NCBI GenBank assembly: GCA_963837715.1
Contig: CAWIOF010000003.1
Span: forward strand, 181,366-245,365
Reading direction: 5' to 3'
Length of the DNA: 64,000 bases
From: an uncultured Actinomycetes bacterium
GTDB lineage: Bacteria > Actinomycetota > Acidimicrobiia > IMCC26256 > JANYLB01
Below, one piece after another: positions 35,074 to 59,223 of the stretch. Below the pieces are notes generated by a model. The model was not told where the DNA came from, made no database searches, and saw nothing but the letters and a program-made list of their open reading frames with translations. Position 1 is the stretch's first letter. Every line of letters starts with the position of its first letter. Both the position numbers and the translations under genes were made by a program.

Positions 35074-35898
35074 ATGAGCACCATTGCTGAGGTTGTCGGT
35101 TCCAAGGAGCTCACTTGGAACCTGACCCTCCGGGAGCTCCGCGGTCGATACAAGAAGTCTGTTCTGGGCTGGAGCTGGTCGCTCCTGAACCCGCTCTCTA
35201 CCGTCATCATCTACTCAATCGTGTTCTCGTACTTCCTGAGGATCGAGCCGCCGACGGGACATCCCAGTGGGTTGCACAACTTCGCGGCGTTCCTCTTGTG
35301 CGGGCTCCTGCCTTGGAACTTTCTGCAGGCTTCGATCAACGGGTCGATGGGAGCGCTCATCGGCAACGCGAACCTCATCAAGAAGGTGTTCTTTCCGCGA
35401 GAGGTGTTCGTGATCTCGGCCGTCGCATCGCTGGTCATCACATTCCTGATCGAACTCGCCGTCCTGGCCGTGATCCTGTTGCTGCTCGGCAACATGGTGG
35501 TGCCGTGGCTCCCCGTTGTGCTGGTGATCGTGGCGATCCAAGCAGTCTTCTGCCTCGGAGTGGGGCTCATGCTCAGCGTGTTGAACGTGTACTTCCGCGA
35601 CGTCCAGCACCTGATGAACATCGTCCTCGCCGCGCTCTTCTACTCGGCCCCGATCGTGTACCCGATCCGCTACGTTCCGAAGGAAGCGCACGTCAACGGC
35701 TGGACCATCCCGGTGCTCGCGATCTACAACCTCAACCCTCTCGTGCAGTTCATCGAGGCCTACCGCGACGCGATGTACGACCTGCGGTTCCCGCCGCTGA
35801 CGTCGATCCTGTATCTCGTGGCGTGGAGCGCTGTGATGCTGCTCATCGGCCTCGCCGTGTTCCGGCGCCTCGAAGCGCGCGTGCCCGAGGAGGTATGA
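35074..35898 (+). CDS. wzm: ABC-2 type polysaccharide export permease (Wzm-like)
   Basis: LTLRELRGRYKKSVLGWSWSLLNPL is the typical ABC-2 N-terminus, with 6 TM helices. AAGGAG lies 9 nt upstream of ATG 35074. Confidence 0.88.
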   Translation: MSTIAEVVGSKELTWNLTLRELRGRYKKSVLGWSWSLLNPLSTVIIYSIVFSYFLRIEPPTGHPSGLHNFAAFLLCGLLPWNFLQASINGSMGALIGNANLIKKVFFPREVFVISAVASLVITFLIELAVLAVILLLLGNMVVPWLPVVLVIVAIQAVFCLGVGLMLSVLNVYFRDVQHLMNIVLAALFYSAPIVYPIRYVPKEAHVNGWTIPVLAIYNLNPLVQFIEAYRDAMYDLRFPPLTSILYLVAWSAVMLLIGLAVFRRLEARVPEEV

Positions 35899-37110
35899 GC
35901 GCGTTGGCCTCGGCGATCTCGGTCGAGAATGTGTCCAAGAACTTCCGGCTGTACACAGAGCGGAACCAGTCGTTGAAGGCGATGGCGCTGTCGCGGACCC
36001 GGGTCCGTTACGAGGAGTTCGCCGCGTTGAAGGACGTGTCGCTCGAGATCCCGGCCGGTGTCACGTTCGGGCTCATCGGCGAGAACGGTTCGGGCAAGAG
36101 CACGCTGCTGAAGTGCATGGCGCGGATCCTGCGGCCCGAGTCCGGTTCGATCCGGACCGAAGGCAAGGTCTCCGCCCTGCTCGAACTCGGTGCGGGGTTC
36201 CACCCCGAACTCTCTGGCCGCGACAACATCTTCCTCAACGGAGCGATCCTGGGGCTCTCGAAGAAGCAGCTCACGGCCAAGTTCGAGGAGATCGTCGATT
36301 TCGCCGGTCTCGAGAAGTTCATCGACACGCCGGTGAAGAACTACTCGTCGGGCATGTACGTGCGGCTCGGATTCTCGATCGCGATCAATGTCGATCCCGA
36401 CATCCTCCTCATCGACGAGGTGCTAGCCGTCGGCGATGAACAGTTCCAGCGGAAGTGCTCGGAGAAGGTCGCCGACCTGCGGGAGAGTGGCAAGACGGTT
36501 GTCATCGTCTCGCATGCGCTGGGCTCGATTCGGACGTTGTGCGACGAGGTCGCTCTGTTGGAGCACGGCGAGCTCCGAGCCGTCGGCCGCGCAGGAGAGG
36601 TGATCGACTCGTACCTTGCCGACGTCCACGTCGACCGTTCCGCCGACGGCGATCACGGATCGCGGTGGGGTTCCGGAGAAGCACGCATCGAACGCGTCGA
36701 GTTGCTCCGCGACGACGGTTCCTCGACCACCGAGGTGAAAACGGGTGACGCGGTCACCTTCCGGTTGCACTACCAGTTCGACGAGCCGATGGAGCGTCCG
36801 GTGTTCGGCGTCTCGATTCAGACCCTGGAAGGGATGGTCGTCACCGGACCGAATACGCGGACAGGGGGGATTTGTGCCGGACAAGCTCGCCGGGACTGGG
36901 GTCGTCGACCTCCACGTCGACCGACTGATGCTCATCGCGGGCACGTATGACGTCAGCGTCTCTCTGTACGACTACTCCTGTTCGCACACATACGACTTCC
37001 GGTACCTCACGTTCCGGTTCGACGTGCAGCGGGGTGACCCGACCGAGGAATTCGGCGTGCTGGCGCTGGGCGGCGTCTGGGACGCGACCGAGGATCGGGT
37101 GCAGTCATGA
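35895..37110 (+). pseudogene. wzt: Polysaccharide export ABC ATPase with a C-terminal glycan-binding domain (Wzt-like), apparent 1-nt frameshift at the G6 run 36864-36869
   Basis: GENGSGKSTLLK, YSSGMYVRLGFS, LLIDEVLAVGD. The Wzt_C-like tail (GTYDVSVSLYD..FRFDVQ..GVW) continues in the +1 frame after ACAGGGGGGATT. 1216 nt equals 405 codons plus 1 nt. Confidence 0.85.
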
Positions 37111-38186
37111 CCGGATCCGGACGCGATCCCGACCCGCGTCTCGAGCTGCCGTTCGACCAGTTCCAGCGGTACTCGGTCGCGGCAGAGCTGCTTCGGGGGC
37201 TCGGCGTACCGGCCGGTGCCCGGGTGCTCGAGGTCGGCGGCGCGCCGGGGCCGCTCGAGGCGTTCATGCCCGAATACACGCTCGTCGTGAGCGACGTCCA
37301 GGGCAAGCAGGACGGACGGTATCTCCTCGCCGACGGTGCCGCACTCCCGTTCCCCGATGCATCGTTCGACGTCGTCCTCACCCTCGACGTGCTCGAACAC
37401 GTCCCTGCGGTGCATCGAGCCGCCTTCCTCGCCGAGGCCCGACGCGTCGCCGGAGATGTCGTCCTGCTGAGCGCGCCGTTCGCGGATCCCGATCTCGAGC
37501 TCGCGGAGGAAGCACTCAACGAGTTCATCCGCGCCCGGTTCCAGGGCGACTTCCCGACGCTCGACGAGCACGCCGACAACGGCCTGCCCGTGTTGGAGGC
37601 AACGGTTGGCTCGTTCGCCGACGACGGGTGGGCGACCGCAGCCCTTCCGAGCGGGTACCTTCCCCACTGGCTCGCGGGGATGCTGGTGCATCACGAGCTG
37701 CTGGCGACGGGTGTTCCGCACCTCGGCAAGCTCCACGCGTACTACAACCAGATGATCTCGCCGCTCGACCGGCGCGAGCCGGCGTATCGGCACGTCGTGG
37801 TCGCGTCGGAGACGCGAAGTTCGACCGACCTCGCCGGAATCGTCGATCCCCTCCGGACTCCCGGCTCCTCCGCCGTCGGATCGGCCACGCTCGCGTCGAT
37901 CGCGAGCACGGTGTTGAGCCAACGGCTCGAATCGGTTGCCCGGGCCGACGATGACGCGCGCGAGCTCGTGCAGGCGCGAACGACGATCGAGGGACTCGAG
38001 CGGGTCGTCGCGGATCGCGATGCGCGGGTGCTCGAGCTCACCGCGTTGGTCGAGGAGCTCCGGATCGAACGGAACGACGCGATCCACGGTGAGCGTGACG
38101 CTTCGGCGCGCGCCTGGCTTCTGGGCATCCCGTACATCGTGCACAAGGCTCGCCAGCGTGTGGTCGCCAAGAAGGGTCGTCAGTGA
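37107..38186 (+). CDS. SAM-dependent methyltransferase with a C-terminal coiled coil (WbdD-like chain terminator candidate)
   Basis: VLEVGGAPGPL, VVLTLDVLEHV. The C-terminal region of about 70 aa (DDDARELVQARTTIEGLERVVADRDARVLELTALVEELRIERNDA) looks heptad-like. ATGA overlap with wzt. Confidence 0.7.
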   Translation: MTGSGRDPDPRLELPFDQFQRYSVAAELLRGLGVPAGARVLEVGGAPGPLEAFMPEYTLVVSDVQGKQDGRYLLADGAALPFPDASFDVVLTLDVLEHVPAVHRAAFLAEARRVAGDVVLLSAPFADPDLELAEEALNEFIRARFQGDFPTLDEHADNGLPVLEATVGSFADDGWATAALPSGYLPHWLAGMLVHHELLATGVPHLGKLHAYYNQMISPLDRREPAYRHVVVASETRSSTDLAGIVDPLRTPGSSAVGSATLASIASTVLSQRLESVARADDDARELVQARTTIEGLERVVADRDARVLELTALVEELRIERNDAIHGERDASARAWLLGIPYIVHKARQRVVAKKGRQ

Positions 38187-40659
38187 GCAAGGGTCTCGTT
38201 CCCGGCCGCGTCTCGGTCGTCATCGTGAACTACCGCGGCTTCGACGACACCGTCGCCTGCCTCGAGGGGCTCGCCGATCTCGAGTGGCCCGATCTCGAGG
38301 TGATCGTCGTCGACAACGCATCCGGCGACGGCAGCTCCGGGCAGCTCGAGTCGAGGTTCCCTGCGGCTCGGGTGCTCGCGCTCGACGTGAACATCGGGTT
38401 CGCCGGTGGATGCAACCGCGGTGCTGCCGTGGCGACCGGCGAGTACGTGGCGTTCCTCAACAACGATGCCCGCCCCGACCCGGCCTGGATCCGGGCGGCG
38501 ATCGACGTGCTCCACGAGGACTCGACGATCGGCTGCGTCGCGAGCCGCGTGCTCGACTGGGAGGGGGCGACGGTCGACTTCGTGGCCGCGGCGCTCTCCT
38601 TCTACGGCCACGGGTTCAAACTGCACGTCGGGGAGCAGGACTCGTCGAACTTCGGTGGCGAAGCCGACGTCCTGTTCGCCTCGGGTGCCGCGATGGTCGA
38701 TGCCGACGACGGTGTTCCGGTCGTCGGGGGGTTTCGACGAGCGCTACTTCATGTTCTTCGAAGACGTCGATCTCGGATGGCGGCTCTGGCTCCTCGGTTA
38801 CCGCGTCCGCTACGTGCCGCGACTCACTCGTGTACCACCGGCATCACCGCTCGATGGCGTCGTACGAATCGTGGTGGGAGCAGTACCTCCTGGAGCGCAA
38901 CGCGCTCTTCACGATCTACAAGAACTACGACGACGCGAACCTCGCCCGGGTGCTCCCTGCCGCCCTGATGCTCGCGGTGCGCAGGGGAGTGACGCTGGGG
39001 GGCGTCGACACGCACGCCCTGGATCTGGCACACAGAACGGGCGGCGACGATCCTCCCGAGCTCGCGGTGGCGAAGCCGGCCGCGGCTTCGCTCTTCGCGA
39101 TCGACGCGATGGTCGAGGAGATGGCCGGCCTGTCGGACACGCGGACCGCGCTCCAGGCCGCGCGCCGGCGGAACGACGCCGAGATCGTGCGGCTGTTCCG
39201 CCTGCCCCTGCACCCCAACATCGGCGATCCCCACTTCGTCGACGGGTTCCGAGCTGTCGTGGAGGCCTTCGACGTGGAAGCGGTGTTCACGGAACGACGC
39301 CGGATCGTCGTCGCCACGGGCGACACCCTGGCGGCCCGGATGGCCGGGCCGGCGATCCACGCGTGGCAGATCTCCAAGGCGCTCTCCCGTGAGCACGACG
39401 TCGTCCTGATCACGACGAACGAGTGGCACGAGGTGACCCACCCCGATTTCGAGGTCCGGAAGGTCGATGACGCCGAGCTGACCAAGCTCGTGATCGACGC
39501 CGATGTCGTGATCTTCCAGGGTTTCCTGATGCGCCAGCACGCGGCATTGCGGTCGACCCAGAACGTGATCGTGGCCGACATCTACGACCCGTTCCACCTC
39601 GAGCAGCTCGAACAGGCGCGCGATCATGGAGCGGTGATGCGCCGCGCGGTCGTGCGCGACGCCACCGACGTGCTCAACGAGCAACTGCAGCGTGGCGACC
39701 TGTTCCTGTGCGCGAGCACCAAGCAACGCGACTTCTGGCTCGGTCAGCTCGCCGCGGTCGGTCGACTCAACCCGGTCACCTACGACGTCGACGAGAGCAT
39801 GGACCAGCTGGTCAAGATCGTGCCGTTCGGCGTGAGCGACGAACCCCCGCAACCCACCCGGCCGGTACTGCGTGACGTCGTCCCCGGGATCGGAGCCGAC
39901 GACAAGGTCATCCTCTGGGGCGGCGGGATCTACAACTGGTTCGATCCGCTCACGCTGCTGCGGGCCGTCGACAAGCTCCGGGGTCGGCTCCCGAACGTCC
40001 GTCTCTTCTTCCTCGGGCTGAAGCACCCGAATCCGCACGTCCCCGAGATGCGGATGGCGGTGGAGGCACGCCGCCTCGCCGACGAGCTGGGGTTGACCGA
40101 CACCCACGTGTTCTTCAACGAGGGCTGGGTCGAGTACGAAGACCGCCAGAACTACCTGCTCGAGTCCGACATCGGTGTGAGCACGCACCTGGAGCACGTC
40201 GAGACCGAGTTCTCGTTCCGGACGCGCATCCTCGACTACCTCTGGGCCGGCCTGCCGGTGGTGGCAACCGAAGGTGACTCCTTCGCGGAGCTGATCGAGA
40301 AGGACCGCTTCGGGCTGGTGGTCCCGGCGGGCGACGTGAGTGCACTCGAGGACGCCCTGTTCCGCCTGCTCAGCGACACCGAGCTGCACACGGAGTGCGC
40401 CGCGGCGGCACGTGGCGCCGCGGTGGCGTTCCGGTGGACGACGGTGCTCGAACCGCTCGTCGAGTTCTGTCGCTCACCCCGCCGCGCCGCCGATCTCGTG
40501 AACCCCGACGCTGCGGCCGACCTTCCCGAGCTCCGCGGCCCGGCACCGTCGGGCTGGTTGCACGACCTCGCCACGGTCAAGCGACTCGTGCGTGAGGGCG
40601 ACCTGCGGACGATCGTCGCCCGTGGTGTGCAGCGTGTCCGGCGGCTGCTCGCCGGCTGA
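38183..40659 (+). pseudogene. Large GT2 + GT4-like two-domain glycosyltransferase, two apparent 1-nt frameshifts (about 38713-38741 and about 38815-38825)
   Basis: Frame A reads VSVVIVNYRGFDDT..VVDNASGDGS..LNNDARP..LFASGAAMV. Frame B reads GGFDERYFMFFEDVDLGWRLWLLGYRVRYVP. Frame C reads SLVYHRHHRS... followed by a GT4-like C-terminal domain (VILWGGGIYNWFDP..STHLEHVETEFSFRTRILDYLWAGLPVV). 2477 nt equals 825 codons plus 2 nt. Confidence 0.8.
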
Positions 40660-40677
40660 TCGCGTCGCGTCGGCGGT

Positions 40678-41376
40678 TCAGCCGTCGAGGTGTCGGAACA
40701 GGGAGCCGAAGTCGGGTCCGATCAGACGCCGCCGGAGCTTGTGGTGGATCCGGTGGGTGAGGGAACTCGCGTCGCGGTTCCCCGGAAGGTCGGCGACCAG
40801 GGGTTGGCGGTCACCCCAGCGCGTCGTCGACCAGTTCCGCGCCGGCATCGAAACCGGGGCGGCGAGATCACGCCGGAACTCGATGTCGACACCGAACTCC
40901 TTGACGACCCCCTTGAGGTACTTGACCGCGAAGTCCATCGACACGCCGTGGCGCCGGAGTTCCGACGCGGTCTCGGGCGCGACCACGAAGTCGATGTTGC
41001 GGAGCAGCCACCGCCCACCGAGCATCTTGGCGAAGGCATCGCGGTGGGAGACGCAGAAGTGCATCCAGATCTGCTCCGTCATGAAGTGCGTGTGGCCGTA
41101 GAGGAACGCCTCATCGCTGAACGCGTACGGGGTCCAGAACTCGATCCGTGCACCGTCGCGGCACACCCGCCCGATCTCCGAGAAGACGTGGTTGGGTTCG
41201 TCGATGTGTTCGAGGAAGTGGGCCGAGAAGACCGCGTCGACCGACGCGTCGTCGAGGGGGTAGCGGTCGGCGGTCAGGTCGACGACGTGATCGACCTGCT
41301 CACCGGCGACGTAGTCGAGACCGATGTAGCCGTCGCGCTTGGCGTTCCCACACCCGAGGTCGATGTTGAGCGTCAT
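40678..41376 (-). CDS. Class I SAM-dependent methyltransferase
   Basis: LNIDLGCGNAKRDGYIGLD, VDAVFSAHFLEHI. 232 aa. Confidence 0.75.
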   Translation of the reverse strand: MTLNIDLGCGNAKRDGYIGLDYVAGEQVDHVVDLTADRYPLDDASVDAVFSAHFLEHIDEPNHVFSEIGRVCRDGARIEFWTPYAFSDEAFLYGHTHFMTEQIWMHFCVSHRDAFAKMLGGRWLLRNIDFVVAPETASELRRHGVSMDFAVKYLKGVVKEFGVDIEFRRDLAAPVSMPARNWSTTRWGDRQPLVADLPGNRDASSLTHRIHHKLRRRLIGPDFGSLFRHLDG

Positions 41377-41409: not shown

Positions 41410-43880
41410 TCAGATGCGTCGACACCCGAGCACTGCCGTGCCGCCGGGGGGCTGACCGATCGCATACGCACACACGGTGTGACCGACCGGGGAGATGGGA
41501 AGCGCCACGTCGAAGCCGTGGGCCGCGCCGTAGCCGGGAAACGCAGCCGCGACGTCGGGCCGCGATGTCGCGGCAGTGGTCACGGCGGCGCCGACTCCGT
41601 CGACGTAGATGTGCAGCGCGGCGGGGGTGACCTTCTCCAGGTCGATGGCCCAACCGCGGGCGCGCACCACTCCACCGACGACGGCGACCTGATCGAGGGA
41701 GCCGACCGGTCTTCCCGCGACCTCGCGGCACCCGAGCACGGTCGTGGGGGCGGGTCCGATGCCGATCGCGTACGCGCACACGGTGTGAGGTCCGGGCGCA
41801 ACGGGCATCAAGGTGTCGAAGCCGTGAGTGGTGCCGTAGCCGGGGAACGCCGTACCGACGTCGTTGCGCGTGGAGTTGGCGCTGAGCACGGCTGCTCCGA
41901 CGCCGTCGACGTAGACGTGTACGGGGATCGACGAGCTCGTGTCGAGATCGATGGTCCAGCCGGAAACCCTGATCGGCCCGCCCTCCCGGCGCGCGAGGTC
42001 GAAGGAGCCGATGGTCGCGCCCGACACCACCCGACATCCGAGCACGCCCACCTCGGTGTTCGCGGCGTTGATGGCGTAGGCGCACACCGTGTGGTCGCCG
42101 GTCGAGAGCGGAACGGTGAGGTCGAACCCGTGGGCGCTCCCGTATCCCACGAACGCCGAGCCCACGTCGGTGCGAGTGGTGTTCGCGGTGGAGATCGCAG
42201 CACCGACCCCGTCGACGTACACGTGGATCGGCAGCGACGCGGTGGACGCCGGATCGATCGCCCAGCCACTGAGATGGACGGGTCCACCTTCGCGGCGAGC
42301 GAGGTCGATGGAACCGATCGGAGTGTCGCGCACCGTCCGACACCCCAGCAGACCGTTCGCGCCGTTGGCGACGCTGATCCCCCACGCGCAGACGGTGTGG
42401 GGCCCCGAGGTGATCGGCACCACCGTGTCGAAGCCATGGTTGTTGCCGTAGCCGGGGTGCGATGCGCCGATGTCGGGGCGAGCGAGGTTGGCAGTCGTCG
42501 CGCCGGCGATGTGTCCGTCGACGTAGATGTGGACCTGGATCGGCGCGCTGACGTCGGGATCGATGGACCAACCAGCGACACGCGCACCGGCGAGGGTTCG
42601 ATCCGCCACGTCGACCGCTCCCCACGGCCAACCGAACGCCACCCGGGGCCGGACGTTGTTCCGGACCTGGTTGATGATCGAGTACCCGCCGTTGCCGGGA
42701 CATCCGGTGCCGTCGCCGGAGATCGCGCCCGCGTCGCGGTGGCCGATGATCGGATCCACGAACGTGCCGTGGGTCGGTGTCAGCGCGTTCGGGTTGATGT
42801 TGTGGATCGTGAACTTCCACGCGATGAGGGCGCTGATGGAGTTGACGGTCGCCCCCGACGGCACCACGCCGCCGTAGTCGCCGATCATGGACACGCCGAA
42901 CGAGCCGGTGTTGAAGTCGGTGGCGTGCGCGCCCACGACCCCCTTGTCGATTCCCCCGTAGCGACCTTCGTAGATCGTCCCGTACTTGTCGACGAGGAAG
43001 TTGTACGCCTCGTCGCAGTACCCCCGGCTGTTGATGAAGTAGGCGTACAGGTTGCGGACGATGTCGGCCGCCCCCGCCTGCGAATAGTCGTTGCCGTTCA
43101 CCGTGTGATGGATGATGGCCATCTTCGGCGCGGCATAGTCCGGGCCGCTCGGGCAGACGCTCTGGCGGAGCGACTCGTCGATGCCGAGCTCCCGCGCGTG
43201 ATGATCCGGGGCTGGGCCGGCCAGGGAACGTCGCCCGGCGCGGCGGCGTCGGCCCGGTCGGCGGCTGCGATGCCGACGGCGCCGGCCGCGAGCACGACGA
43301 CCACGAGCGTGGCGGTGACCTTCCTGCGGTTGCGGACGGCCGCGATCGCCCCACCGATCGCGACGAGTCCGATCCCGGGGACCATCCCTGCGGTCTGGGA
43401 GACGGGGAGCGGTGGTGTGGGGACGTCGGTCGCGAACGCGGTCACCTCGACCGCAGTGGCGGAACCGGTCGCGAGTTGCAGGCGCACCTCGTCGGGACTC
43501 TTGACGAGGATCGGTTCGCTCACGAGCTCCGGAGCGGTGGAGGCAGCCCGTCGTGAGTCGGGTGTGTCGACGTCGGTACCGCCGTCGGCTTCGCCGACCG
43601 TTCCCCGATCGACCCAGGTGCCGTCGTCACGCCTCGTCTCGACCCGGAACTCGGCGGTCGGGTCGCCAGTCCACGCGACGCTCACGATGTTGGTGCGATC
43701 GGGTACCGATCGCACCTCCGTGCGGTCTCGCCGTTCGAGGCGGGCCCCCGGCGGTGTGACGGTCTCCTTGCTCACGTCGGATGTCACAGTTGGCGAGTCG
43801 GCTGCGAAGGCACCGGTTCCGGCGGCGAGCGCGAGCCAGATCGTGCCGACGACGAGGAGGAGGGTCGAGAGCTTCCGCAT
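41410..43880 (-). pseudogene. Secreted N-acetylmuramoyl-L-alanine amidase (Amidase_2/PGRP fold) with 4 C-terminal novel repeats, apparent 1-nt frameshift near 43190-43200
   Basis: MRKLSTLLLVVGTIWLALAAGTGAFA signal peptide, with AAGGA upstream of ATG 43880. QPRIITR then switches frame to ELGIDESLR..KMAIIHHTVNGNDY..YNFLVDKYG..GAHATDFNTGSFGVSMIGDY..IIGHRD. The junction is CACGCGCGGGAG. Confidence 0.8.
41413..42627 (-). repeat. Four tandem copies of a protein repeat of about 100 aa (novel wall-hydrolase repeat)
   Basis: Copies at about 42627-42322, 42321-42016, 42015-41710 and 41709-41413. Consensus PIGS.D....G...V.GWAIDP....P..VH.YVDG.G....AN..R.DVG..FPGYG..HGFD...P.....HTVCAYAI.......LGCR. Confidence 0.85.
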
Positions 43881-44005
43881 CAGGTCCTTCGGGGGAGGCG
43901 GCGGGGGAACGCCGGGTGAAGCCGACCATCCTCGCGCCTCAGGCGCGCTGACCGGGAGTCGGGTCAGTTCACCATTGCCCGCTCCTGAGCTCGCCGCCGA
44001 TCGGA

Positions 44006-45613
44006 TCAGGCGTTCCGGCAGCCGAGAGTCCGATTCGGGGAGTTGACGACGGTATTGATCGCGTACGTGCAGATCGTGGAGTTCGATGGCGGGGTCGGGA
44101 TGACTGCGGCGAACCCGTGTCCGACACCGAGCGCCGGGAACACGGAGGCGACATCGGGACGGGCTGCGTCGGCGGCCAGTATCGCGGCGCCGACGCCGTT
44201 CACATAGACGTGTACTGCCACCGGGCCCTTCGTGATCCCGGAGATCGCCCATCCGGTGACTTCCACAGTCTGTGGCGTCATGCGTGTCGCGGTATCGAAG
44301 GCCCCGAACGGTGTCCCTGATGGCGCCCGGCATCCGAGGCCGGTGTTCGAGCCACCCAGATCTGGGGCGATCGCATACGCGCAGACAATGCGGGCGTTTG
44401 GATCGAGGGGCAGAGTGATCGAGAATCCGTGTGACGGTCCGTAGCTGGGGAACACAGCTCCGACATCGGGCCGAGATTGGTCTGCGGAAAGGATCGCGCG
44501 CCCGACCCCGTCGACGTAGACGTGGACGGTCACGGGTCCCGACGAGTTCGGCCCGATCGTCCACCCGCTGATGTGGATCCCGTCGGGCCGGGCGTCGGTC
44601 TCGTCGAGCACGCCGATCGGGTCGGTGGTCACGCGGCGACACCCGAGCTGCGGGTTGGTGCCCCCTGAGGAGCTGATCGCGTACGCGCAGACGGTGTGCG
44701 GTCCTGCGGGGGCGGCGAAGGTCGTCGCGAACCCGTGGTCGGTACCGGCGCCGGCTACGGCGGCGCCGACATCGGGGCGCGCCAGGTTGGCGGTCGTGAT
44801 GGCGGTACCCACCCCGTCGACGTAGATGTGCACCGGGATGGGGCCGGTGGTCGTCGGGTCGACGGTCCAACCGGACGCGGTGATCGTCCCGACGCCACGG
44901 GTCGAGGCGTCGAGGAAACCGATCGGAGTCGTCGAGAAGTCGGTGATGCCCACGAGGCCGTTGAAGGCGAGCATCTTGGAGTACACGCCGAGCACGGTGG
45001 CGGTGTACGTCGGACTGGATGCCCACCTCCCGGTCATGTCCTCCCAGGTCGGGGCCCAGCCGTGCGTGCCGCCCGGGACGTTGTACCGGGAGGAGGGGTT
45101 CCAGAGCTGGACGACAGGGGGAAAGCCGATGTTGGCGTCGGTCGACCCGGCGTCGGCATACCGGCGGAGCAACTGGATCTGGCCCCTGACACCGGTCCGC
45201 GCGTCGGGCGCCCGGAACAGGTGGCTCCCGTCGCCGTACGCACCGATCCCGGCGAAGTTGTTGTCGGTCGGTCGTACGTATCCACCCGCGGGAAAGCTGA
45301 ACCAGCCCGTCTCGACGACCGACTGCGCGAACGCGATGTCGCCCCGGACCTTCGCGACGGCCCCTTCGCTCACGTAGAGCGCGGCGAGCTGCTCGACCGG
45401 GACCGACGCCTGGTACGGGCTGCGCGTGCTGGCGCGGAACCAGGCCGCGATCTGGGCTGCGTTCAGGCGGCTCGGCCCGAGGACGGGGGTCCCGGCGGCG
45501 GCGGCGGGACCGGTCGAGGCGAGCACGGGCGCGAGCGCGCCGGTCACCAGTGCAATGGCGGCCACGATCCATGTGATGGCGCGTACGCGCCGCTTCGCCT
45601 GGTGACGCATCAT
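44006..45613 (-). CDS. Secreted N-acetylglucosaminidase-family peptidoglycan hydrolase with 3 C-terminal novel repeats
   Basis: Signal/TM segment (RAITWIVAAIALVTGALAPVLA). IAFAQSVVETGWF..NNFAGIGAY resembles the Glucosaminidase (PF01832-like) motif. Three repeats of the same family as in the amidase follow. Confidence 0.8.
   Translation of the reverse strand: MMRHQAKRRVRAITWIVAAIALVTGALAPVLASTGPAAAAGTPVLGPSRLNAAQIAAWFRASTRSPYQASVPVEQLAALYVSEGAVAKVRGDIAFAQSVVETGWFSFPAGGYVRPTDNNFAGIGAYGDGSHLFRAPDARTGVRGQIQLLRRYADAGSTDANIGFPPVVQLWNPSSRYNVPGGTHGWAPTWEDMTGRWASSPTYTATVLGVYSKMLAFNGLVGITDFSTTPIGFLDASTRGVGTITASGWTVDPTTTGPIPVHIYVDGVGTAITTANLARPDVGAAVAGAGTDHGFATTFAAPAGPHTVCAYAISSSGGTNPQLGCRRVTTDPIGVLDETDARPDGIHISGWTIGPNSSGPVTVHVYVDGVGRAILSADQSRPDVGAVFPSYGPSHGFSITLPLDPNARIVCAYAIAPDLGGSNTGLGCRAPSGTPFGAFDTATRMTPQTVEVTGWAISGITKGPVAVHVYVNGVGAAILAADAARPDVASVFPALGVGHGFAAVIPTPPSNSTICTYAINTVVNSPNRTLGCRNA
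44009..44926 (-). repeat. Three tandem copies of the wall-hydrolase repeat of about 100 aa
   Basis: Copies at about 44926-44621, 44620-44312 and 44311-44009, carrying the same GW..D/VHVYVDG/R.DV/HGF/C..AI/LGCR landmarks. Confidence 0.85.
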
Positions 45614-45617
45614 TCGA

Positions 45618-46961
45618 CTATCGGTCGAGGGGAGGGTGGGGCTTGAGGCTCGATCGGTTCCGGTGGCGGGTCCGGAGCATCGCCGGACTCCTCGTGAGGA
45701 AGCCGCCGAGGGCCCGGCTGCGGGTGACCACATAGGCGGCGCGGGGCCGCTCGCCCCGCCCGATCGGTGCGATCAGGTCCCGCCAGGCATAGGAGAGGGT
45801 GTTGCCGGCAAACCGGGCGGCCGCCCGCGACGCGGGTCCGGGTCCGGCGTGGCGGGCGAGCACGAGCAGGCGGTTCCGCTCGGTGTAGAAGGCGGTGTCG
45901 CGCCACCGCCGGGAGCTGGTCGCAGCGTGTCGGTGGCGGACCACCGATTCGGGCACGTAGCGGTACCGCCAGCCGGCCTCTCGTCCGCGGAGCGAGAGCT
46001 CGAGGTCTTCGTAGTAGAGGAACAGGCGTTCGTCGAACGGGCCGATGTCTTCGAGGTACGCGGCTCGCAACAACACCGCGCCGCCGTACCAACCGAAGAT
46101 GTCGGTCGCCTGTTCGTACTGGCGCCGATCTTCTTCGAGGTACCCGATGTCGATGCCGTAGCCATCAGGCGTCATCGCGGTCCCGATGCTGTTGATCACG
46201 TCGAACGGTGCGCCGATCGTCGGTGCGGCGAACCAGCGCGAGTTGGTCGTGACGTTCGCAGTGATCGTCTGATCGAGCGACGTGAGCTGCACCGGACCCG
46301 CCGTGGGCGCGTCGAGTCGGAGCTCGCACCGGTCGGGATCGGGTGCCAGGTCCACGACCGGCACGAGGAGCGACGCGTGTTCGGTGCTCCAGCGGTATGG
46401 ACCGGAGGAGGTCCACTCGGGACCCCAGGTCCCCGTTTCGAAGCGAGTCCGTGACCAGAGGTCTTCGTCGCCCGAGCGGAGGCCGCTGATCCGTACCCCG
46501 AGCTCGCGTCGCTCGAGTCGACCACCGTCGCCGGCGGGCGCGGAGAGTTCGAGTCGGCGGTACCGGTCGCGGAAGAGGACCTTCGGCCCGGCGGCACCGA
46601 GCTGCGCGTCGCGTTCGAGGGTGGCGACGAGTGGACGGAGCCACCCCGGTTCGACGGTCACGTCGTTGTTGATCAACGCGACGTACTCCACCGCTCCGAG
46701 GTCGTCGAGCGCGAGGTTGTTGCCACCCGCGAAGCCCCGGTTGGTGGTCGAGCGCACGATCCGCACCCGCGGGTGTTCGGAGCGGACACGGTCGACGACG
46801 CTGACGGTCGAACCGTTGTCGACCACGACGATCTCGAGCGCGTCCGGATCCCAGTCGGTGCGTCCGAGCGCGTCGAGGCACTCGAGGGTGAGGGCACCGC
46901 CGTTGTGGTCGACGACGACGACCCGCACCCGGCCCGACGTCGAACCGGGGTCGGTCGTCAC
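45618..46961 (-). CDS. GT2 family glycosyltransferase
   Basis: RVVVVDHNGGALTLECL..VVVDNGSTV..INNDVTVEPGW..GGAVLLR..GPFDERLFLYYEDLELSLR..YVPESVVRHRH. The GTG start overlaps the upstream stop (GTGA). Confidence 0.85.
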   Translation of the reverse strand: MTTDPGSTSGRVRVVVVDHNGGALTLECLDALGRTDWDPDALEIVVVDNGSTVSVVDRVRSEHPRVRIVRSTTNRGFAGGNNLALDDLGAVEYVALINNDVTVEPGWLRPLVATLERDAQLGAAGPKVLFRDRYRRLELSAPAGDGGRLERRELGVRISGLRSGDEDLWSRTRFETGTWGPEWTSSGPYRWSTEHASLLVPVVDLAPDPDRCELRLDAPTAGPVQLTSLDQTITANVTTNSRWFAAPTIGAPFDVINSIGTAMTPDGYGIDIGYLEEDRRQYEQATDIFGWYGGAVLLRAAYLEDIGPFDERLFLYYEDLELSLRGREAGWRYRYVPESVVRHRHAATSSRRWRDTAFYTERNRLLVLARHAGPGPASRAAARFAGNTLSYAWRDLIAPIGRGERPRAAYVVTRSRALGGFLTRSPAMLRTRHRNRSSLKPHPPLDR

Positions 46962-48763
46962 GGTCTCGCCGGTTCGGGGTCGACCCGGCACACCGTGAAG
47001 GTGCCGTAGTACGGCACGATCGCGATGCCCTGGGGACGCTCGATGTTCACCCACACCGGCCGACCTCCGAGGAGGTCCTGTCGGATCACCAGGCCCTGGC
47101 TGTCGCCGTTCGGGGTGGTGGCCCAGATCAGCATCGACGTCGTGACCGGGGCTGTGACCTGCACCGAGCTCGGCTCCGAGGCCCGGAGGACGACCCGGCC
47201 GGTGGGCGAGGGCGGGACCACGGTGCATCCGGCCGACACGGGCGCGGTGGTGGATCCCGACCCGACGTCGGGCGCATCGGCGCCGACGGGAACGGAGGGC
47301 CGACGGGTGATGGAGAGGTAGGGGTACACGTCGACGTCGGGAAAGGCCTTCGCATCGCCCCGCCCCGCGGGGAACCAGCCCGACCTGATCAACGAACGGA
47401 GCTTGGCGACGGTGAGGTCGGGATTGGGCTGGATCTGGGGGACGACGATCCCGGGCGCGTCGGGGTCGGCCCGGATCGCCGTCGCGACGGTGAGGAGCTC
47501 GTTCCGGAGGTTCTGGTCGACGGCGCCCTCCGCGAGTGCGGTGCGTCGGGTGTCGCGTGCGTTGACGAGCACGAGCGACACGAGCACCACCGCGATCGCG
47601 ACGTGCACGATGAACCGGCGTGTCCAGATCAGACTCACGGCGATCGCCACCACCGGCAGCATCAGCGCGCCGGCGACGTAGAGGTACCGGGAAGCGTCCG
47701 GTCCGAACTCGGCGCGGCCCAGTGCGGTCACGGCGAAGAAGACGAATGCACTCGATGCAGACGCGACGGCGATCAACGCCGGCCCGCGCCACGCGCGGAC
47801 CCAGACGACGGCCGCCATCACGACGACACACGCGAGGAGCACGCCCGATGCCACGCCATGGAGGCGAGTCGGGTCGCCCACGGTGAAGCGCAGACCCCGC
47901 AGGACGAACTCGGGAGCAGCGCGCAAGAGGCTTCCCGTGATGCGGACCCGGCCGTCGCCCTCGGAGATGGTGTCGCGACCGACGGCCAGGTACCAGGCCG
48001 CGAACACGAGCCCCGATGGCGCGAACACCGCCAGCCCGACCCGCCAGCCGCGTCGGATCGCGAGCAGCATCGCCGCAACTGCGATCAGGGGGACGCTCAC
48101 CGCGGAGAAGGTGAGGCTCACGATCGCGACGGTCGCGGTGGCGACGCCGCGCCGGAGGCCGAGCGGCTGCTCGTGATCCGCGAGGAGGAGCAGACCGAGG
48201 CCGAACGCGACTGATCCGTTCAAAGTGATCTGGAAGGCGTGGAAGGCCTCGGGCGCGGTGGGGGACGCGACGAGCAGCAGCGCGGCGAGGCCGGTCGCGA
48301 CCCAGCGCGCCGAACCCGCCCGGACCGCCACCCGCCAGGCGAGGTGAACGACCGTGAGGTGGACCAGCACACTCGCGGCGAGGAACGGCAGGTAGCTCTG
48401 GAGGCCGAAGACGTTCAGCAGCGCCCGGTACATCAGGATCGGACCCGTCACCCAGTGCTGCATGTGCGGGGCGAACAGCCCCACGTCGGCATCGAGGATC
48501 CCGCGCTTGGCGATGAACGCCCACTCGTCGGCGACGAACCAGTGGTCGCGACCGAGCCAGAGCAGCCAGGCGCCCCCGACCGCGAGCGTCAGCAGGTGGG
48601 CGATCGTGGCGGGATCGGTGAACCGGAGGCGTGGACTCGGCCGCGCGCCACCCGATTCGGGCTCGGACGGGACCGGCGCGGACCTCGGAGCGGGCGGGTC
48701 GACGACCGTCGGACCCGGCGCCTCGATCAGATCAGTCCCTTGTCGATCGCGTCGACGACCCAC
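46958..48763 (-). CDS. Large polytopic membrane protein, candidate GT-C glycosyltransferase with a C-terminal extracytoplasmic domain
   Basis: About 11-13 TM helices followed by a soluble tail of about 170 aa. It sits directly after a polyprenyl-phosphate GT2. The start is uncertain (it overlaps the upstream gene by 37 nt if ATG 48763 is used). Confidence 0.55.
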   Translation of the reverse strand: MGRRRDRQGTDLIEAPGPTVVDPPAPRSAPVPSEPESGGARPSPRLRFTDPATIAHLLTLAVGGAWLLWLGRDHWFVADEWAFIAKRGILDADVGLFAPHMQHWVTGPILMYRALLNVFGLQSYLPFLAASVLVHLTVVHLAWRVAVRAGSARWVATGLAALLLVASPTAPEAFHAFQITLNGSVAFGLGLLLLADHEQPLGLRRGVATATVAIVSLTFSAVSVPLIAVAAMLLAIRRGWRVGLAVFAPSGLVFAAWYLAVGRDTISEGDGRVRITGSLLRAAPEFVLRGLRFTVGDPTRLHGVASGVLLACVVVMAAVVWVRAWRGPALIAVASASSAFVFFAVTALGRAEFGPDASRYLYVAGALMLPVVAIAVSLIWTRRFIVHVAIAVVLVSLVLVNARDTRRTALAEGAVDQNLRNELLTVATAIRADPDAPGIVVPQIQPNPDLTVAKLRSLIRSGWFPAGRGDAKAFPDVDVYPYLSITRRPSVPVGADAPDVGSGSTTAPVSAGCTVVPPSPTGRVVLRASEPSSVQVTAPVTTSMLIWATTPNGDSQGLVIRQDLLGGRPVWVNIERPQGIAIVPYYGTFTVCRVDPEPARP

Positions 48764-49755
48764 GGCACGACTTCGTCGAGCATCTCGTCGAGCGTGGTCG
48801 TGGCCTCGAAGCCGAGCACGTCGCGCGCCTTCTCGGTGGCCGGGACCCGCTTCTGGACATCGTGCTCGAACGGGTCTTCGCTCTCGTACCGGAACGGCGT
48901 GTCGGCGCCCTTGAGGCGGTGCCAGATGTTCTCGGCGAGCTCGATCACGGTCGTGGACTCGGCTGTCGACAGGTTGAAGTCTTCGTTCAGCGCGGCGGGC
49001 GATTCCATGGCCATCACGATCCCGCGCGCGAGGTCGGCACCGTAGGTGTAGTGGCGGACCTGGTCGCCGGAGCCGAGGAGGCGCAGCGGGTCCTGGCCCT
49101 TCACGACCTTCTGCACGAGGTCGGGGACCACGTGGCTCATGGCCAACTTGACGTTCCCGCTGAGCACCTCGATCTCGCTCTTCGCCCGCATCTCACCGAT
49201 GCCGACGCAGTTGAACGGTCGCACGATCGTGTACGGGAGTCCGTACTGGTCGTGCGCCGCGTGCGCGAAGTACTCCACCGCGAGCTTCTGGAATCCGTAG
49301 GACGAGAGGGGCGGGGGCACCACGCGCTCCTGGCCCTCGTACGACGGCCAGGAGTCGGCCGACTCGAAGACCATCGACGAGCTCATGTAGGTGGTCTTCT
49401 TGAGCCGACCCTCGCGGTGGGCCGCGATGGCGGCGTCGCACGACGACGCGATGATGCGCTCGTTCGTGGCGAGCAGGTCGTACGCGTAGGTGTGGAAGTA
49501 CGAGATCCCGCCGATGAGCGCGGCCCCGGCGATGAAGTGATCACACTCGAGGAGGAGCTCCGTCATCAGTGCGGTGTCCTGCACGTCGGCCTCGACGAGC
49601 CGGTATCCCGGGTGCTCGTCGTACGACTTGGCGATCTTGCCGTACTTGGAGTGGTTGTCGATCCCGATCACCGAGTACCCGCGACCCAACAGCTCCTCGA
49701 CGACGTAGCCACCGATGAATCCGGACGAACCGGTGACGAGGACGGTCTCACTCAT
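48727..49755 (-). CDS. NAD-dependent sugar-nucleotide epimerase/dehydratase (SDR)
   Basis: VLVTGSSGFIGGYV (Rossmann), SSYGFQKLAVE (YxxxK). 342 aa. Confidence 0.85.
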   Translation of the reverse strand: MSETVLVTGSSGFIGGYVVEELLGRGYSVIGIDNHSKYGKIAKSYDEHPGYRLVEADVQDTALMTELLLECDHFIAGAALIGGISYFHTYAYDLLATNERIIASSCDAAIAAHREGRLKKTTYMSSSMVFESADSWPSYEGQERVVPPPLSSYGFQKLAVEYFAHAAHDQYGLPYTIVRPFNCVGIGEMRAKSEIEVLSGNVKLAMSHVVPDLVQKVVKGQDPLRLLGSGDQVRHYTYGADLARGIVMAMESPAALNEDFNLSTAESTTVIELAENIWHRLKGADTPFRYESEDPFEHDVQKRVPATEKARDVLGFEATTTLDEMLDEVVPWVVDAIDKGLI

Positions 49756-49782
49756 GGAATGCTCCCTGCATGGCGCGGTGGC

Positions 49783-50514
49783 TCAGGACTCGTCGCTCGG
49801 CGCGTCGATGATCTTCGGCCCGAAGGCGTATCCGTACCAGTGCAGGTACCTGGGAAGCCACTTGGCGACCTGGAAGTTCGAGGATCCGTAGTCGCGCTGG
49901 AGCCAGATCGTGGGGATCTCGGCGACCGGGAGCCGATGACGCCGGGCCTTGGCCACGAGCTCGATCCCGATCTCGAACCCGGCGTCGGAGTCGATGCCCA
50001 CCCGGCGCACGAAGTCGGCCGAGTAGGCCTTGAAGGAGTTCGTGGCGTCGCGGGTGCCGACGCCGGCGAAGAGGTACAGCGAGAGTCCCGCGAGTCGCGA
50101 CATCCAGCCCTTGAGGAACGGACCACCGATCTGCTTGCCGCCGGCCATGTACCGGGAGGCCGCCGCGAGCACGACGCCCCGCTCCACCAGCTTGCACAGC
50201 ACGTCGATCTGCTCGGCGTCGTCGCTGCCGTCGGCCATGGTGACCACCACGACCGGTGCGGTGGCGTGGTCGATGCCGAAGCGGATGGCGCGGGCCGGGC
50301 CGCGACCGTAGGTGTTGTGCACTCCGACGACACGGGGGTCGGAGCGGTGGTACTTCTCGATGTAGGCGACGGTCGGATCGTCGGGATCGTCGTAGACGAC
50401 ACCGATCTCGCACGGGAGCGTGACTCCCTGCAGGATCCGGTCGAGGCAGCCGACGATCGACTCGCCTTCGTTGTAGACGGGAACGACGATGGAGACCCTC
50501 GGCTCTTCGGGCAT
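49783..50514 (-). CDS. GT2 polyprenyl-phosphate sugar synthase (DPM1/ArnC/PpgS/GtrB-like)
   Basis: VSIVVPVYNEGESI, VVVTMADGSDD (DxD-like), NSFKAY. 243 aa, soluble catalytic core. Confidence 0.75.
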   Translation of the reverse strand: MPEEPRVSIVVPVYNEGESIVGCLDRILQGVTLPCEIGVVYDDPDDPTVAYIEKYHRSDPRVVGVHNTYGRGPARAIRFGIDHATAPVVVVTMADGSDDAEQIDVLCKLVERGVVLAAASRYMAGGKQIGGPFLKGWMSRLAGLSLYLFAGVGTRDATNSFKAYSADFVRRVGIDSDAGFEIGIELVAKARRHRLPVAEIPTIWLQRDYGSSNFQVAKWLPRYLHWYGYAFGPKIIDAPSDES

Positions 50515-50516
50515 CG

Positions 50517-58245: not shown

Positions 58246-58250
58246 GGGCG

Positions 58251-59213: not shown

Positions 59214-59223
59214 GTCGGATTCC

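What the first reader, a model, noticed from the sequence alone, without database searches (positions are those of the whole stretch)
41410..45613. Unrecognised two-cysteine repeat of about 100 aa shared by an amidase, a glucosaminidase and (at 56.3 kb) a GH25 muramidase
There are eleven copies: 4 in the amidase, 3 in the glucosaminidase and 4 in the GH25 enzyme at 56305-57507. The consensus is P-I-G-S-x-D-x(6-8)-V-x-G-W-A-I-D-P-x(3-5)-P-x-x-V-H-V-Y-V-D-G-x-G-x(5)-A-N-x-x-R-x-D-V-G-x-x-F-P-G-Y-G-x-x-H-G-F-D-x(3)-P-x(4-6)-H-T-V-C-A-Y-A-I-x(6-9)-L-G-C-R. The two invariant Cys are about 17-19 residues apart, which suggests a disulfide. The pattern is beta-rich. It does not resemble LysM, SH3b, PG_binding_1, SLH, CW_binding_1/2, GW, ChW or SPOR repeats as I know them. 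Three catalytic classes that together cut every glycan and stem linkage of peptidoglycan carry the same module, and all three are encoded inside glycan-synthesis operons. I propose a wall-glycopolymer-binding targeting domain whose ligand is made by the neighbouring genes.
Basis: partly seen in the sequence, partly recalled or inferred. Interest (0 to 1): 0.78.

Follow-up and report, generated by a model that had tools for sequence, protein, structure and literature searches.

The report
Uncatalogued Ig-like wall-targeting repeat on autolysins
Three cell-wall-cutting enzymes, each encoded inside gene clusters that build a rhamnose-type wall sugar polymer, end in rigid arrays of the same undescribed 100-residue, two-cysteine immunoglobulin-like module, which most likely anchors them to the wall and belongs to a very large family that no domain database searched here names.

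Summary
There are exactly 11 copies of a 100-104 aa repeat: 4 on an Amidase_2 enzyme, 3 on a probable glucosaminidase and 4 on a GH25 muramidase. Two cysteines are invariant. No Pfam, NCBIfam or PHROG model matches the repeat. No solved structure covers it.

AlphaFold2 gives a confident seven-strand Ig-like beta-sandwich (pLDDT 96). Tandem copies form a rigid rod (pTM 0.80). Foldseek finds only generic Ig/E-set folds.

The family is large: 9,633 clusters at 50% identity, with up to 8 copies per protein. Named hits are almost all Actinomycetota (Acidimicrobiia, Microbacteriaceae, Cellulomonas and others). The repeat sits at the C-terminus of peptidoglycan hydrolases, other glycosidases and proteases.

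In 37 of 49 related loci it lies beside Wzm/Wzt, Rml and glycosyltransferase genes.

Its only annotated relative is the uncharacterised C-terminal domain of Enterococcus faecium phage endolysins (hhalign 90%).

The best reading is a new wall-targeting module. A rhamnose-containing wall glycopolymer is the probable ligand, but this is unproven. The concept has precedents (EpaU, AtlA); the module does not.

The parts
41410..43122 (-). 3' part of the amidase gene: Amidase_2 catalytic domain followed by 4 repeats. The protein ends 2 residues after the last Cys.
   Evidence: Pfam Amidase_2 1.9e-15; repeats
43194..43880 (-). 5' part of the same amidase gene in another frame. It carries a signal peptide (MRKLSTLLL...), about 150 aa with no family assignment, and hydrophobic segments. 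A 1-nt deletion near 43191-43194 separates it from the catalytic part.
   Evidence: tblastn of the intact 823-aa ortholog from L001: residues 1-230 align in frame -3 and residues 232-823 in frame -2; sequence; no Pfam or PDB hit
41419..42645 (-). Amidase repeat array R1-R4 (42337-42645, 42031-42336, 41725-42030, 41419-41724)
   Evidence: HMM i-Evalues 2e-41 to 2e-44; AF2 model of R2 pLDDT 96.2; model of R2-R3 pTM 0.80
44006..45613 (-). Probable N-acetylglucosaminidase (GH73-like) with a signal peptide (MMRHQAKRRVRAITWIVAAIALV...) and 3 C-terminal repeats
   Evidence: Pfam Glucosaminidase 3.8e-5, below the cut-off; NCBIfam TftA C-terminal region 4.9e-21; 70%-identical 520-aa ortholog in L001
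44015..44947 (-). Glucosaminidase repeat array R1-R3 (44636-44947, 44327-44635, 44015-44326)
56302..58305 (-). GH25 muramidase with an N-terminal signal peptide and 4 C-terminal repeats. The exact start codon is uncertain; the collection's own gene call, P0271, is 647 aa.
   Evidence: Pfam Glyco_hydro_25 2.1e-45
56311..57522 (-). GH25 repeat array R1-R4 (57211-57522, 56911-57210, 56611-56910, 56311-56610)
35053..36950 (+). Wzm (ABC-2 permease) and Wzt (ATPase with the Wzt_C carbohydrate-binding domain): exporter of the putative ligand polymer
37107..41376 (.). Methyltransferase, GT1/GT4 glycosyltransferase and a second methyltransferase, directly flanking the amidase
45618..51689 (-). GT2, a 601-aa membrane protein, NAD-dependent epimerase, GT2 and UDP-glucose dehydrogenase. 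They are co-directional with the two hydrolase genes and abut them.
58251..60719 (-). RmlB (dTDP-glucose 4,6-dehydratase-like), RmlC (dTDP-4-dehydrorhamnose 3,5-epimerase) and an RmlA-like nucleotidyltransferase, immediately upstream of GH25 on the same strand

Best explanation
The repeat is a previously uncatalogued module of about 100 residues. It is an Ig-like (E-set-type) beta-sandwich, stapled by a disulfide.

Two to eight copies are joined by 3-residue linkers into a rigid rod at the C-terminus of secreted enzymes of Actinomycetota. In this window the enzymes are a MurNAc-L-Ala amidase, a probable glucosaminidase and a GH25 muramidase.

I infer that it acts as a non-covalent, multivalent cell-wall-targeting (CWB) module. 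After Sec export, the rod would bind a conserved feature of the wall. The most likely target is the rhamnose-containing glycopolymer made by the adjoining Wzm/Wzt-dependent cluster. Binding would concentrate and position the hydrolases in the wall. Co-transcription with the glycan genes would couple the supply of enzyme to the supply of receptor.

Shown here: the repeat, its fold class, the co-occurrence of the Cys pair, the domain architectures, the family size, the taxonomy, the conserved gene neighbourhood, and the remote homology to E. faecium phage endolysin C-terminal domains.

Inferred: wall binding as such, and the identity of the ligand.
For: (1) Reality and novelty. There are 11 copies. 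No Pfam, NCBIfam or PHROG match was found. The only PDB sequence hit is the unresolved C-terminal domain of EfAmi1, 8C4D. The authors call that domain unclassified and propose it as a new carbohydrate-binding module (PMC10167349).

(2) Fold. The model has pLDDT 96.2, with seven strands and one short helix. The best PDB and BFVD matches are generic Ig/E-set domains with TM at most 0.62. The two-repeat model has pLDDT 95 and pTM 0.80.

(3) Disulfide. Both Cys are present in 1,335 of 1,372 repeats. They are lost together in 26, where about 0.7 would be expected if losses were independent.

(4) Position. The repeat is a C-terminal appendage of secreted wall-active enzymes. Among 66 N-terminal regions from related loci: Amidase_2 11, Glucosaminidase 2, GH25 1, SpoIID 2, VanY 1, M23 1, GH43 5, GH18 2, GH5 2, GH39 2, S8 2, CAP 2. 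Further partners appear among database hits: DUF3152, polysaccharide deacetylase, GH25, M23, S8.

(5) Neighbourhood. Of 137 neighbours from 12 diverse loci: 20 GT2, 15 GT1/GT4, 6 RmlD/epimerase, 6 DUF2142, 5 ABC_tran, 5 ABC2_membrane, 4 Wzt_C, 4 GtrA, 2 RgpF. Of 49 loci of at least 15 kb, 37 carry two or more homologs of this window's glycan genes, 30 carry Wzm/Wzt and 25 carry Rml genes. One third of all genes called there are such homologs.

(6) Remote homology. hhalign against the C-terminal domains of E. faecium, E. hirae and Listeria phage endolysins gives probability 90.3%, E 1.5e-6, over 77 columns. The shared signature is D, GW, RPDV and GF. Enterococcal walls carry a rhamnopolysaccharide (PMC13343894).

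(7) Precedents. EpaU is a GH25 autolysin encoded inside the E. faecalis epa cluster. Its repeat CWB domain binds EPA (PMC13343894). The Bsp repeats of S. mutans AtlA bind the polyrhamnose backbone (bioRxiv 10.1101/2020.06.26.173716).
Against: No binding data exist for any member. The phage relative is itself uncharacterised.

Eleven of the 49 loci of at least 15 kb show no homolog of this window's glycan genes. A member of the abundant ~715-aa subfamily in Rhabdothermincola salaria is not in a glycan cluster.

The conserved residues (W24, D27, R54, D56, H68) may be structural rather than ligand-contacting.

The loci are phylogenetically non-independent, and the background frequency of glycan genes was taken from general knowledge rather than measured.

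Ig-like rods can also be plain spacers.
Confidence: 0.6

Rival explanations
1. The module binds peptidoglycan itself (the conserved GlcNAc-MurNAc strand). It would be a generic PG-binding domain like LysM or SH3b, and its position in glycan clusters would be incidental or regulatory.
For: The partners are dominated by PG hydrolases. The near-invariant signature across Acidimicrobiia and Actinomycetes fits a universally conserved ligand. About 22% of loci lack glycan genes nearby, and P0277 is not in a glycan cluster. The authors of EfAmi1 suggested peptidoglycan recognition for the related C-terminal domain.
Against: One third of the neighbouring genes are homologs of glycan-cluster genes, and 30 of 49 loci carry Wzm/Wzt. 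This is hard to explain for a pure PG binder. The module is also attached to enzymes that do not act on PG: GH43, GH5, GH39, GH18, S8 and CAP.
Confidence: 0.2
2. The array is a passive rigid stalk or spacer, or a stabilising appendage, that binds no ligand. Ig-like tandem domains often play this role in bacterial surface proteins.
For: The fold is a generic Ig-like one with no specific structural relative. The linkers are rigid and the two-repeat model has pTM 0.80. Weak Big_7 similarity is seen in some members.
Against: The arrays are C-terminal, and the proteins stop 1-2 residues after the last repeat. Nothing lies beyond the rod for a stalk to connect to. Invariant polar and aromatic positions (GW, D27, R54, D56, H68) are kept across 1,372 repeats and are shared with single-copy phage endolysin C-terminal domains. 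Endolysin C-terminal domains are typically binding modules (established knowledge of the family).
Confidence: 0.12
3. The module mediates protein-protein contacts. Examples would be self-association into a surface layer, oligomerisation of hydrolases, or docking to the glycan export or ligation machinery encoded nearby.
For: The best single-domain Foldseek match is the dimerisation domain of sulfite dehydrogenase (TM about 0.6, 25% identity). Several repeat proteins are often encoded side by side.
Against: The E-value is weak (2e-3) and the fold is generic. No partner protein co-occurs consistently. The diversity of catalytic partners fits a shared wall receptor better.
Confidence: 0.05

Closest known systems
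C-terminal domain of Enterococcus faecium phage/prophage amidase endolysins (EfAmi1, PDB 8C4D construct; LysEFm5 of phage IME-EFm5)
   Same: It is the only annotated sequence relative. Profile against the PDB gives E 3.7e-4. hhalign gives 90.3%, E 1.5e-6, over 77 columns. The two share the D...GW...RPDV...GF signature. Both sit C-terminal to an Amidase_2 domain on a lytic enzyme. The hosts have rhamnopolysaccharide walls.
   Different: The phage domain occurs once (twice in VRE9_4), not in arrays of 3-8. It lacks the Cys pair and diverges in the last strands. The domain is absent from the crystal and its function is unknown. tblastn finds no phage copy of the actinobacterial repeat.
EpaU (AtlE) of Enterococcus faecalis
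   Same: It is a GH25 autolysin encoded inside the wall rhamnopolysaccharide (epa) cluster. Its C-terminal repeat CWB domain binds the polymer made by that cluster (PMC13343894).
   Different: The EpaU CWB is described as OB-like repeats and is highly strain-variable. The module here is an Ig-like sandwich with a strongly conserved signature.
Bsp-like repeats (PF08481) of Streptococcus mutans AtlA
   Same: A repeat array on a GH25 autolysin binds the polyrhamnose backbone of the wall polysaccharide and so positions the enzyme (bioRxiv 10.1101/2020.06.26.173716).
   Different: It is N-terminal and belongs to a different family. There is no Pfam Bsp hit here. The gene is not inside the polysaccharide cluster.
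Big_7 (PF17957) and other E-set bacterial Ig-like domains, such as the chitinase A N-domain, GH2 Ig-like domains and the Moco-dimerisation domain
   Same: The fold class is the same. A few family members collect summed Big_7 scores just above the cut-off, over the GW...VxVYVDG segment.
   Different: None of the 11 window repeats hits Big_7, even at E<=10. TM is at most 0.62. The Cys pair and the RPDV/HGF motifs are specific to this family.
Classical wall-polymer-binding repeats: SLH (pyruvylated SCWP), CW_binding_1 (choline-teichoic acid), CW_binding_2 (C. difficile PSII), GW (LTA), LysM and SH3b (PG)
   Same: They are tandem non-catalytic repeats that hold secreted hydrolases on the wall. Some of their genes neighbour the genes that synthesise the ligand (general knowledge).
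   Different: There is no sequence match, and the folds differ.

Membership tests
LysM / SH3b / PG_binding_1 / SLH / CW_binding_1 / CW_binding_2 / GW / ChW / SPOR / Bsp / LGFP (Pfam wall-binding repeats) | Match to the family's Pfam HMM | tested here: not met
   The whole proteins at E<=1 hit only catalytic domains, apart from a chance-level RuBisCO_large_N hit on the GH25 repeat region (E 0.24). Each repeat on its own at E<=10 gives only noise.
Big_7 (PF17957) bacterial Ig domain | HMM score above the gathering cut-off | tested here: not met
   None of the 11 window repeats gives a hit. Some relatives (P0241, P0081, P0298) reach 28-33 bits, but only as sums of partial matches with no single significant stretch.
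Ig-like / E-set beta-sandwich fold class | Seven-to-eight-strand two-sheet sandwich that superposes on known E-set domains | tested here: met
   AF2 pLDDT 96.2 with 7 strands. Foldseek top hits are E-set domains with TM 0.5-0.62 and probability 1.0 but E of at least 1e-4.
EfAmi1/LysEFm5-type endolysin C-terminal domain | Detectable homology across the domain | tested here: met
   hmmsearch gives 20-27 bits for five of six independent phage lysins. hhalign gives probability 90.3%, E 1.5e-6, but covers only the first ~77 columns.
EfAmi1/LysEFm5-type endolysin C-terminal domain | Same C-terminal strands and architecture (a single ~130-aa domain) | tested here: not met
   The phage domains lack both Cys, have a different C-terminal third and are not arrayed.
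EpaU-like system (autolysin of a wall-polysaccharide cluster that binds that polysaccharide) | PG hydrolase encoded within the glycopolymer biosynthesis cluster | tested here: met
   GH25 abuts RmlB/C/A. The amidase and glucosaminidase lie between a methyltransferase and a GT2. The arrangement recurs in 37 of 49 loci.
EpaU-like system (autolysin of a wall-polysaccharide cluster that binds that polysaccharide) | The CWB domain binds the cluster's polymer | not testable with these tools
   This needs binding assays with walls or polymer from wild type and glycan mutants.
EpaU-like system (autolysin of a wall-polysaccharide cluster that binds that polysaccharide) | CWB domain homologous to the OB-like repeats of EpaU | not tested
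   The EpaU sequence was not at hand. The paper describes OB-like repeats, whereas the model here is an Ig-like sandwich, so homology is unlikely.
Disulfide-stabilised extracytoplasmic domain | Paired, co-conserved cysteines in a secreted protein | tested here: met
   Counts of both/neither/first only/second only are 1335/26/11/0 in 1,372 repeats. The Cys lie on the last two, hairpin-connected strands of the model. Signal peptides are present.

The most novel reading that the evidence does not exclude
The actinobacterial repeat and the E. faecium phage endolysin C-terminal domain are two branches of one ancient lectin superfamily. This superfamily would recognise the conserved polyrhamnose (or linkage-unit) core of ABC-exported wall glycopolymers. 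If so, this is a general wall-anchoring system for Actinomycetota that lack known CWB repeats, and a portable rhamnan-targeting module shared between cells and phages.
Probability: 0.2. Interest if true: 0.75.

Novelty: new variant of a known kind. Interest (0 to 1): 0.55.

Why it matters
Acidimicrobiia, Microbacteriaceae and Cellulomonadaceae are abundant in soil and water. How they hold enzymes on their walls is essentially undescribed, and none of the classical wall-binding repeats was detected on the enzymes examined here.

A family of about 10,000 clusters at 50% identity with no domain-database entry is a real annotation gap. A Pfam/InterPro model would turn thousands of 'hypothetical proteins' into recognisable surface enzymes.

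If the ligand is the rhamnose-containing polymer, three things follow:
- The module would be a probe for these polymers.
- It would be a handle for engineering lysins against Actinomycetota, and through the phage branch against E. faecium.
- It would be a second, independent example of the EpaU/AtlA principle that wall polysaccharides direct autolysins.

Tried and rejected
- Pfam on whole proteins and on each repeat, NCBIfam and PHROGs gave no family for the repeat.
- A PDB sequence search gave only 8C4D, whose crystal lacks the matching domain.
- Foldseek against PDB and BFVD, with one-repeat and two-repeat models, gave only generic Ig/FnIII/E-set matches. The resemblance to the sulfite dehydrogenase dimerisation domain was judged to reflect fold class only.
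- tblastn of the 4-repeat array against 50,697 phage records gave no match.
- The search for related loci with the 11-repeat alignment failed for lack of a conserved stretch. I repeated it with a 5-repeat alignment.
- The first homolog search with the 102-aa profile returned only fragments of 182 aa or less. I repeated it with the 4-repeat array.
- PDB sequence searches for the glucosaminidase catalytic region and for the amidase N-terminal extension found nothing.
- Looking up the window's own contig, and the Agromyces protein P0267, by exact protein match found nothing.
- I tried to check a second suspected frameshift (membrane protein at 54405-56529) against homologs. None was present in the fetched loci.
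- Literature searches found no description of this repeat.

Full report
**1. What is in the sequence**

Three minus-strand genes carry the repeat.
- ORF 41410-43122 has an Amidase_2 domain (Pfam 1.9e-15) followed by four repeats.
- ORF 44006-45613 has a GH73-like region followed by three repeats. The evidence for the catalytic region is a Pfam Glucosaminidase hit at 3.8e-5, below the curated cut-off, and an NCBIfam match of 4.9e-21 to the C-terminal catalytic part of TftA.
- ORF 56302-58305 has a GH25 domain (2.1e-45) followed by four repeats.

An HMM built from the repeats finds exactly these 11 copies in the six-frame translation of all 64 kb, each with i-Evalue 1e-40 to 1e-44. The units are 100-104 aa and 36-66% identical (mean 46%). 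Sixteen columns are invariant: G8, D11, G24, W25, Y40, G43, A51, R55, D57, G66, H69, G70, C85, I89, G100, C101. The two Cys are 16-17 residues apart. Each protein ends one or two residues after the last Cys. The glucosaminidase and the GH25 enzyme begin with obvious signal peptides.

The amidase ORF is only part of a gene. An intact 823-aa ortholog in an Acidimicrobiia MAG (L001) aligns to window 43880-43194 in one frame and to 43191-41413 in another. The local sequence shows a single missing base in ...ACGCGC(G)CGGAGCTC.... This is either a pseudogene or an assembly indel.

**2. Is the repeat a known domain?**

No Pfam-A, NCBIfam or PHROG model matches it, either in the whole proteins or in each repeat scanned alone at E<=10. 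That excludes LysM, SH3b, PG_binding_1, SLH, CW_binding_1/2, GW, ChW, SPOR and Bsp at the sequence level.

Against all PDB sequences, the profile hits only 8C4D (EfAmi1, an E. faecium prophage amidase) at residues 205-288, E 3.7e-4. The paper on that entry says the C-terminal domain has no InterPro classification and was lost from the crystal by proteolysis. The authors merely propose that it is a new carbohydrate-binding module (PMC10167349).

I collected the corresponding C-terminal domains from phage endolysins. There are 57 phage records, almost all from E. faecium, E. hirae or E. gallinarum phages, including IME-EFm5. Five of six score 20-27 bits with the actinobacterial HMM. A profile-profile comparison gives 90.3% probability, E 1.5e-6, over 77 columns. 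The shared signature is D...GW...RPDV...GF. The phage domains lack the Cys pair, differ in the last third and are not arrayed. tblastn finds no phage copy of the actinobacterial repeat itself.

**3. Fold**

AlphaFold2 on repeat R2 of the amidase, with a 52-sequence alignment, gives pLDDT 96.2 and pTM 0.86. The model has seven strands and one short helix. Foldseek against the PDB finds only generic Ig-like/E-set domains: the sulfite dehydrogenase C-terminal domain, fungal FIPs, the chitinase A N-domain, GH2 Ig-like domains and FnIII. TM is at most 0.61 and no hit has E<=1e-3. BFVD gives two uncharacterised phage proteins at about 1e-4, best TM 0.62.

A two-repeat model has pLDDT 95 and pTM 0.80. 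The last strand of one unit is separated from the first strand of the next by three residues, so the arrays are rigid rods. Its PDB matches are generic tandem Ig/FnIII pairs. Some relatives collect summed, partial Big_7 scores. The family is therefore best described as a new, divergent branch of the bacterial Ig-like/E-set class.

**4. The cysteine pair**

In 1,372 unique full-length repeats from 383 proteins, both Cys are present in 1,335. Both are absent in 26, only the first is present in 11, and only the second in none. About 0.7 joint losses would be expected if losses were independent, although the sequences are related. The two Cys lie on the last two strands of the model, which are joined as a hairpin, in secreted proteins. 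A disulfide is likely, but I could not measure it because coordinates were not returned.

**5. Family size, taxonomy and architectures**

An exhaustive HMM search of 1.84 billion representatives finds 9,633 proteins at E<=1e-3. Of these, 4,832 are at E<=1e-10 and 1,898 at E<=1e-30. A protein carries up to 8 copies.

Named members and genome loci are almost all Actinomycetota: many Acidimicrobiia/Iamiaceae, Microbacterium, Cryobacterium, Agromyces, Leifsonia, Frigoribacterium, Curtobacterium, Herbiconiux, Cellulomonas, Jatrophihabitans, Acidothermaceae, Blastococcus and Nakamurella. The closest locus (L001, 70-75% identity, with the same glucosaminidase-amidase pair) is an Acidimicrobiia MAG, so the window probably comes from that class. 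Source names are 'hypothetical protein' or refer only to the catalytic domain.

The repeats are almost always C-terminal. The N-terminal parts of 66 repeat proteins carry Amidase_2 (11), GH43 (5), GH18, S8, SpoIID, CAP, Glucosaminidase, GH39 and GH5 (2 each), and GH25, VanY, M23 and others (1 each). About half have no Pfam domain. Other partners seen are DUF3152, polysaccharide deacetylase and FlhE-like. This is the behaviour of a promiscuous surface-retention module, with a bias towards wall-active enzymes.

**6. Gene neighbourhood**

In the window, the amidase and the glucosaminidase sit in a tight co-directional run with two GT2s, a large membrane protein, an epimerase, a UDP-glucose dehydrogenase and a methyltransferase. 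Wzm, Wzt (with its Wzt_C domain), a methyltransferase and a GT1/GT4 lie just beyond. GH25 directly follows RmlA-like, RmlC and RmlB. A second glycan block lies at 19.6-26.8 kb.

This is not a local accident. Among 137 neighbours taken from 12 taxonomically diverse loci, Pfam finds 20 GT2, 15 GT1/GT4, 6 RmlD/epimerase, 6 DUF2142, 5 ABC_tran, 5 ABC2_membrane, 4 Wzt_C, 4 GtrA and 2 RgpF.

phmmer with the window's glycan genes hits two or more genes in 37 of 49 loci of at least 15 kb. It finds Wzm/Wzt in 30, Rml genes in 25 and glycosyltransferases in 32. In all, 212 of the 652 genes called there are hit. From general knowledge, such genes make up only a few per cent of an actinobacterial genome, so the enrichment is large. 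I did not measure a matched background, and the loci are not phylogenetically independent.

Eleven loci show none of these genes. P0277 of Rhabdothermincola salaria, from the abundant ~715-aa subfamily, lies among unrelated genes.

**7. Interpretation**

The data fit a wall-targeting module. It is a C-terminal, arrayed, rigid, disulfide-stabilised extracytoplasmic domain on secreted hydrolases. Its conserved polar and aromatic signature is shared with single-copy phage endolysin C-terminal domains. The C-terminal domain of an endolysin is classically the wall-binding part (established knowledge of the family).

The conserved neighbourhood points to the rhamnose-containing, ABC-exported wall glycopolymer as the receptor. 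Because the signature is nearly invariant from Acidimicrobiia to Microbacteriaceae, I expect the ligand to be a conserved element rather than a variable decoration. Candidates are a rhamnan backbone or the linkage unit. The peptidoglycan glycan strand remains the main rival.

Two experimental precedents show that the logic is sound:
- E. faecalis EpaU is a GH25 autolysin encoded inside the epa cluster. Its OB-like repeat domain binds EPA (PMC13343894).
- S. mutans AtlA carries Bsp repeats that bind the polyrhamnose backbone (bioRxiv 10.1101/2020.06.26.173716).

The concept is therefore known. The module, its fold, its size as a family and its phylum-wide use are not described in anything I could search.

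**8. Verdict**

My confidence is:
- about 0.95 that this is a real, uncatalogued Ig-like repeat family;
- about 0.7 that it is a wall-binding module;
- about 0.45 that the neighbouring cluster's glycopolymer is the ligand.

I rate it a new variant of a known kind, with moderate to high interest. It matters chiefly as a large annotation gap and as a directly testable hypothesis for how these Actinomycetota position their autolysins.

Noticed in passing
window 43185-43200 (minus strand): The amidase gene is interrupted by a single-base deletion. The sequence reads ACGCGCGGGAGCTC where ...CGC GCG GAG CTC... is expected. The N-terminal 230 aa and the catalytic/repeat part are in different frames. 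An intact 823-aa ortholog exists in L001. This is either a pseudogene or an assembly indel.
   Followed up: yes
window 43194-43880 (minus strand): The amidase N-terminal extension has a signal peptide, about 150 aa and two hydrophobic segments. It matches no Pfam or PDB entry, yet it is conserved (60% identity) in the L001 ortholog.
   Followed up: partly
window 54405-56529 (plus strand): A PMT_2/GT-C-like membrane protein appears as two overlapping ORFs (54405-55277 and 55153-56529). The second runs 228 nt antisense into the 3' end of the GH25 gene. This may be a second indel or an over-extended ORF in high-GC DNA. No homolog in the fetched loci was available to settle it.
   Followed up: partly
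window 35895-36950, 37107-38186, 40678-41376, 51831-52529, 34211-34849, 23140-25443: Wzt carries the Wzt_C carbohydrate-binding domain, and the region encodes at least five methyltransferases, including a GT2-methyltransferase fusion. This pattern recalls methyl-capped, chain-length-controlled ABC-exported glycans such as E. coli O8/O9a (from general knowledge; not tested).
   Followed up: no
P0224, P0277, P0232, P0286 and many other hits; L085:10001-12157: The commonest relatives are 700-719-aa proteins with four C-terminal repeats and a ~300-aa N-terminal region that has no Pfam match at all. This may be an unrecognised catalytic domain. The Rhabdothermincola salaria member is not in a glycan cluster.
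   Followed up: partly
loci L001, L004-L006, L008-L010, L019, L023, L028-L030, L041, L045: Two or three repeat-bearing genes are frequently adjacent, as the glucosaminidase and amidase are in the window. The 800-aa plus 720-aa pair recurs across Acidimicrobiia MAGs.
   Followed up: partly
L084:652-1878 (Enterococcus phage VRE9_4 endolysin): This large E. faecium phage endolysin carries two tandem copies of the EfAmi1-type C-terminal domain. The phage branch can therefore also be arrayed.
   Followed up: no
L068 and L075: Two loci with 46%-identical repeats are labelled Bordetella parapertussis MAG and Bifidobacterium breve MAG. These are probably mis-binned or mislabelled contigs rather than true hosts.
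   Followed up: no
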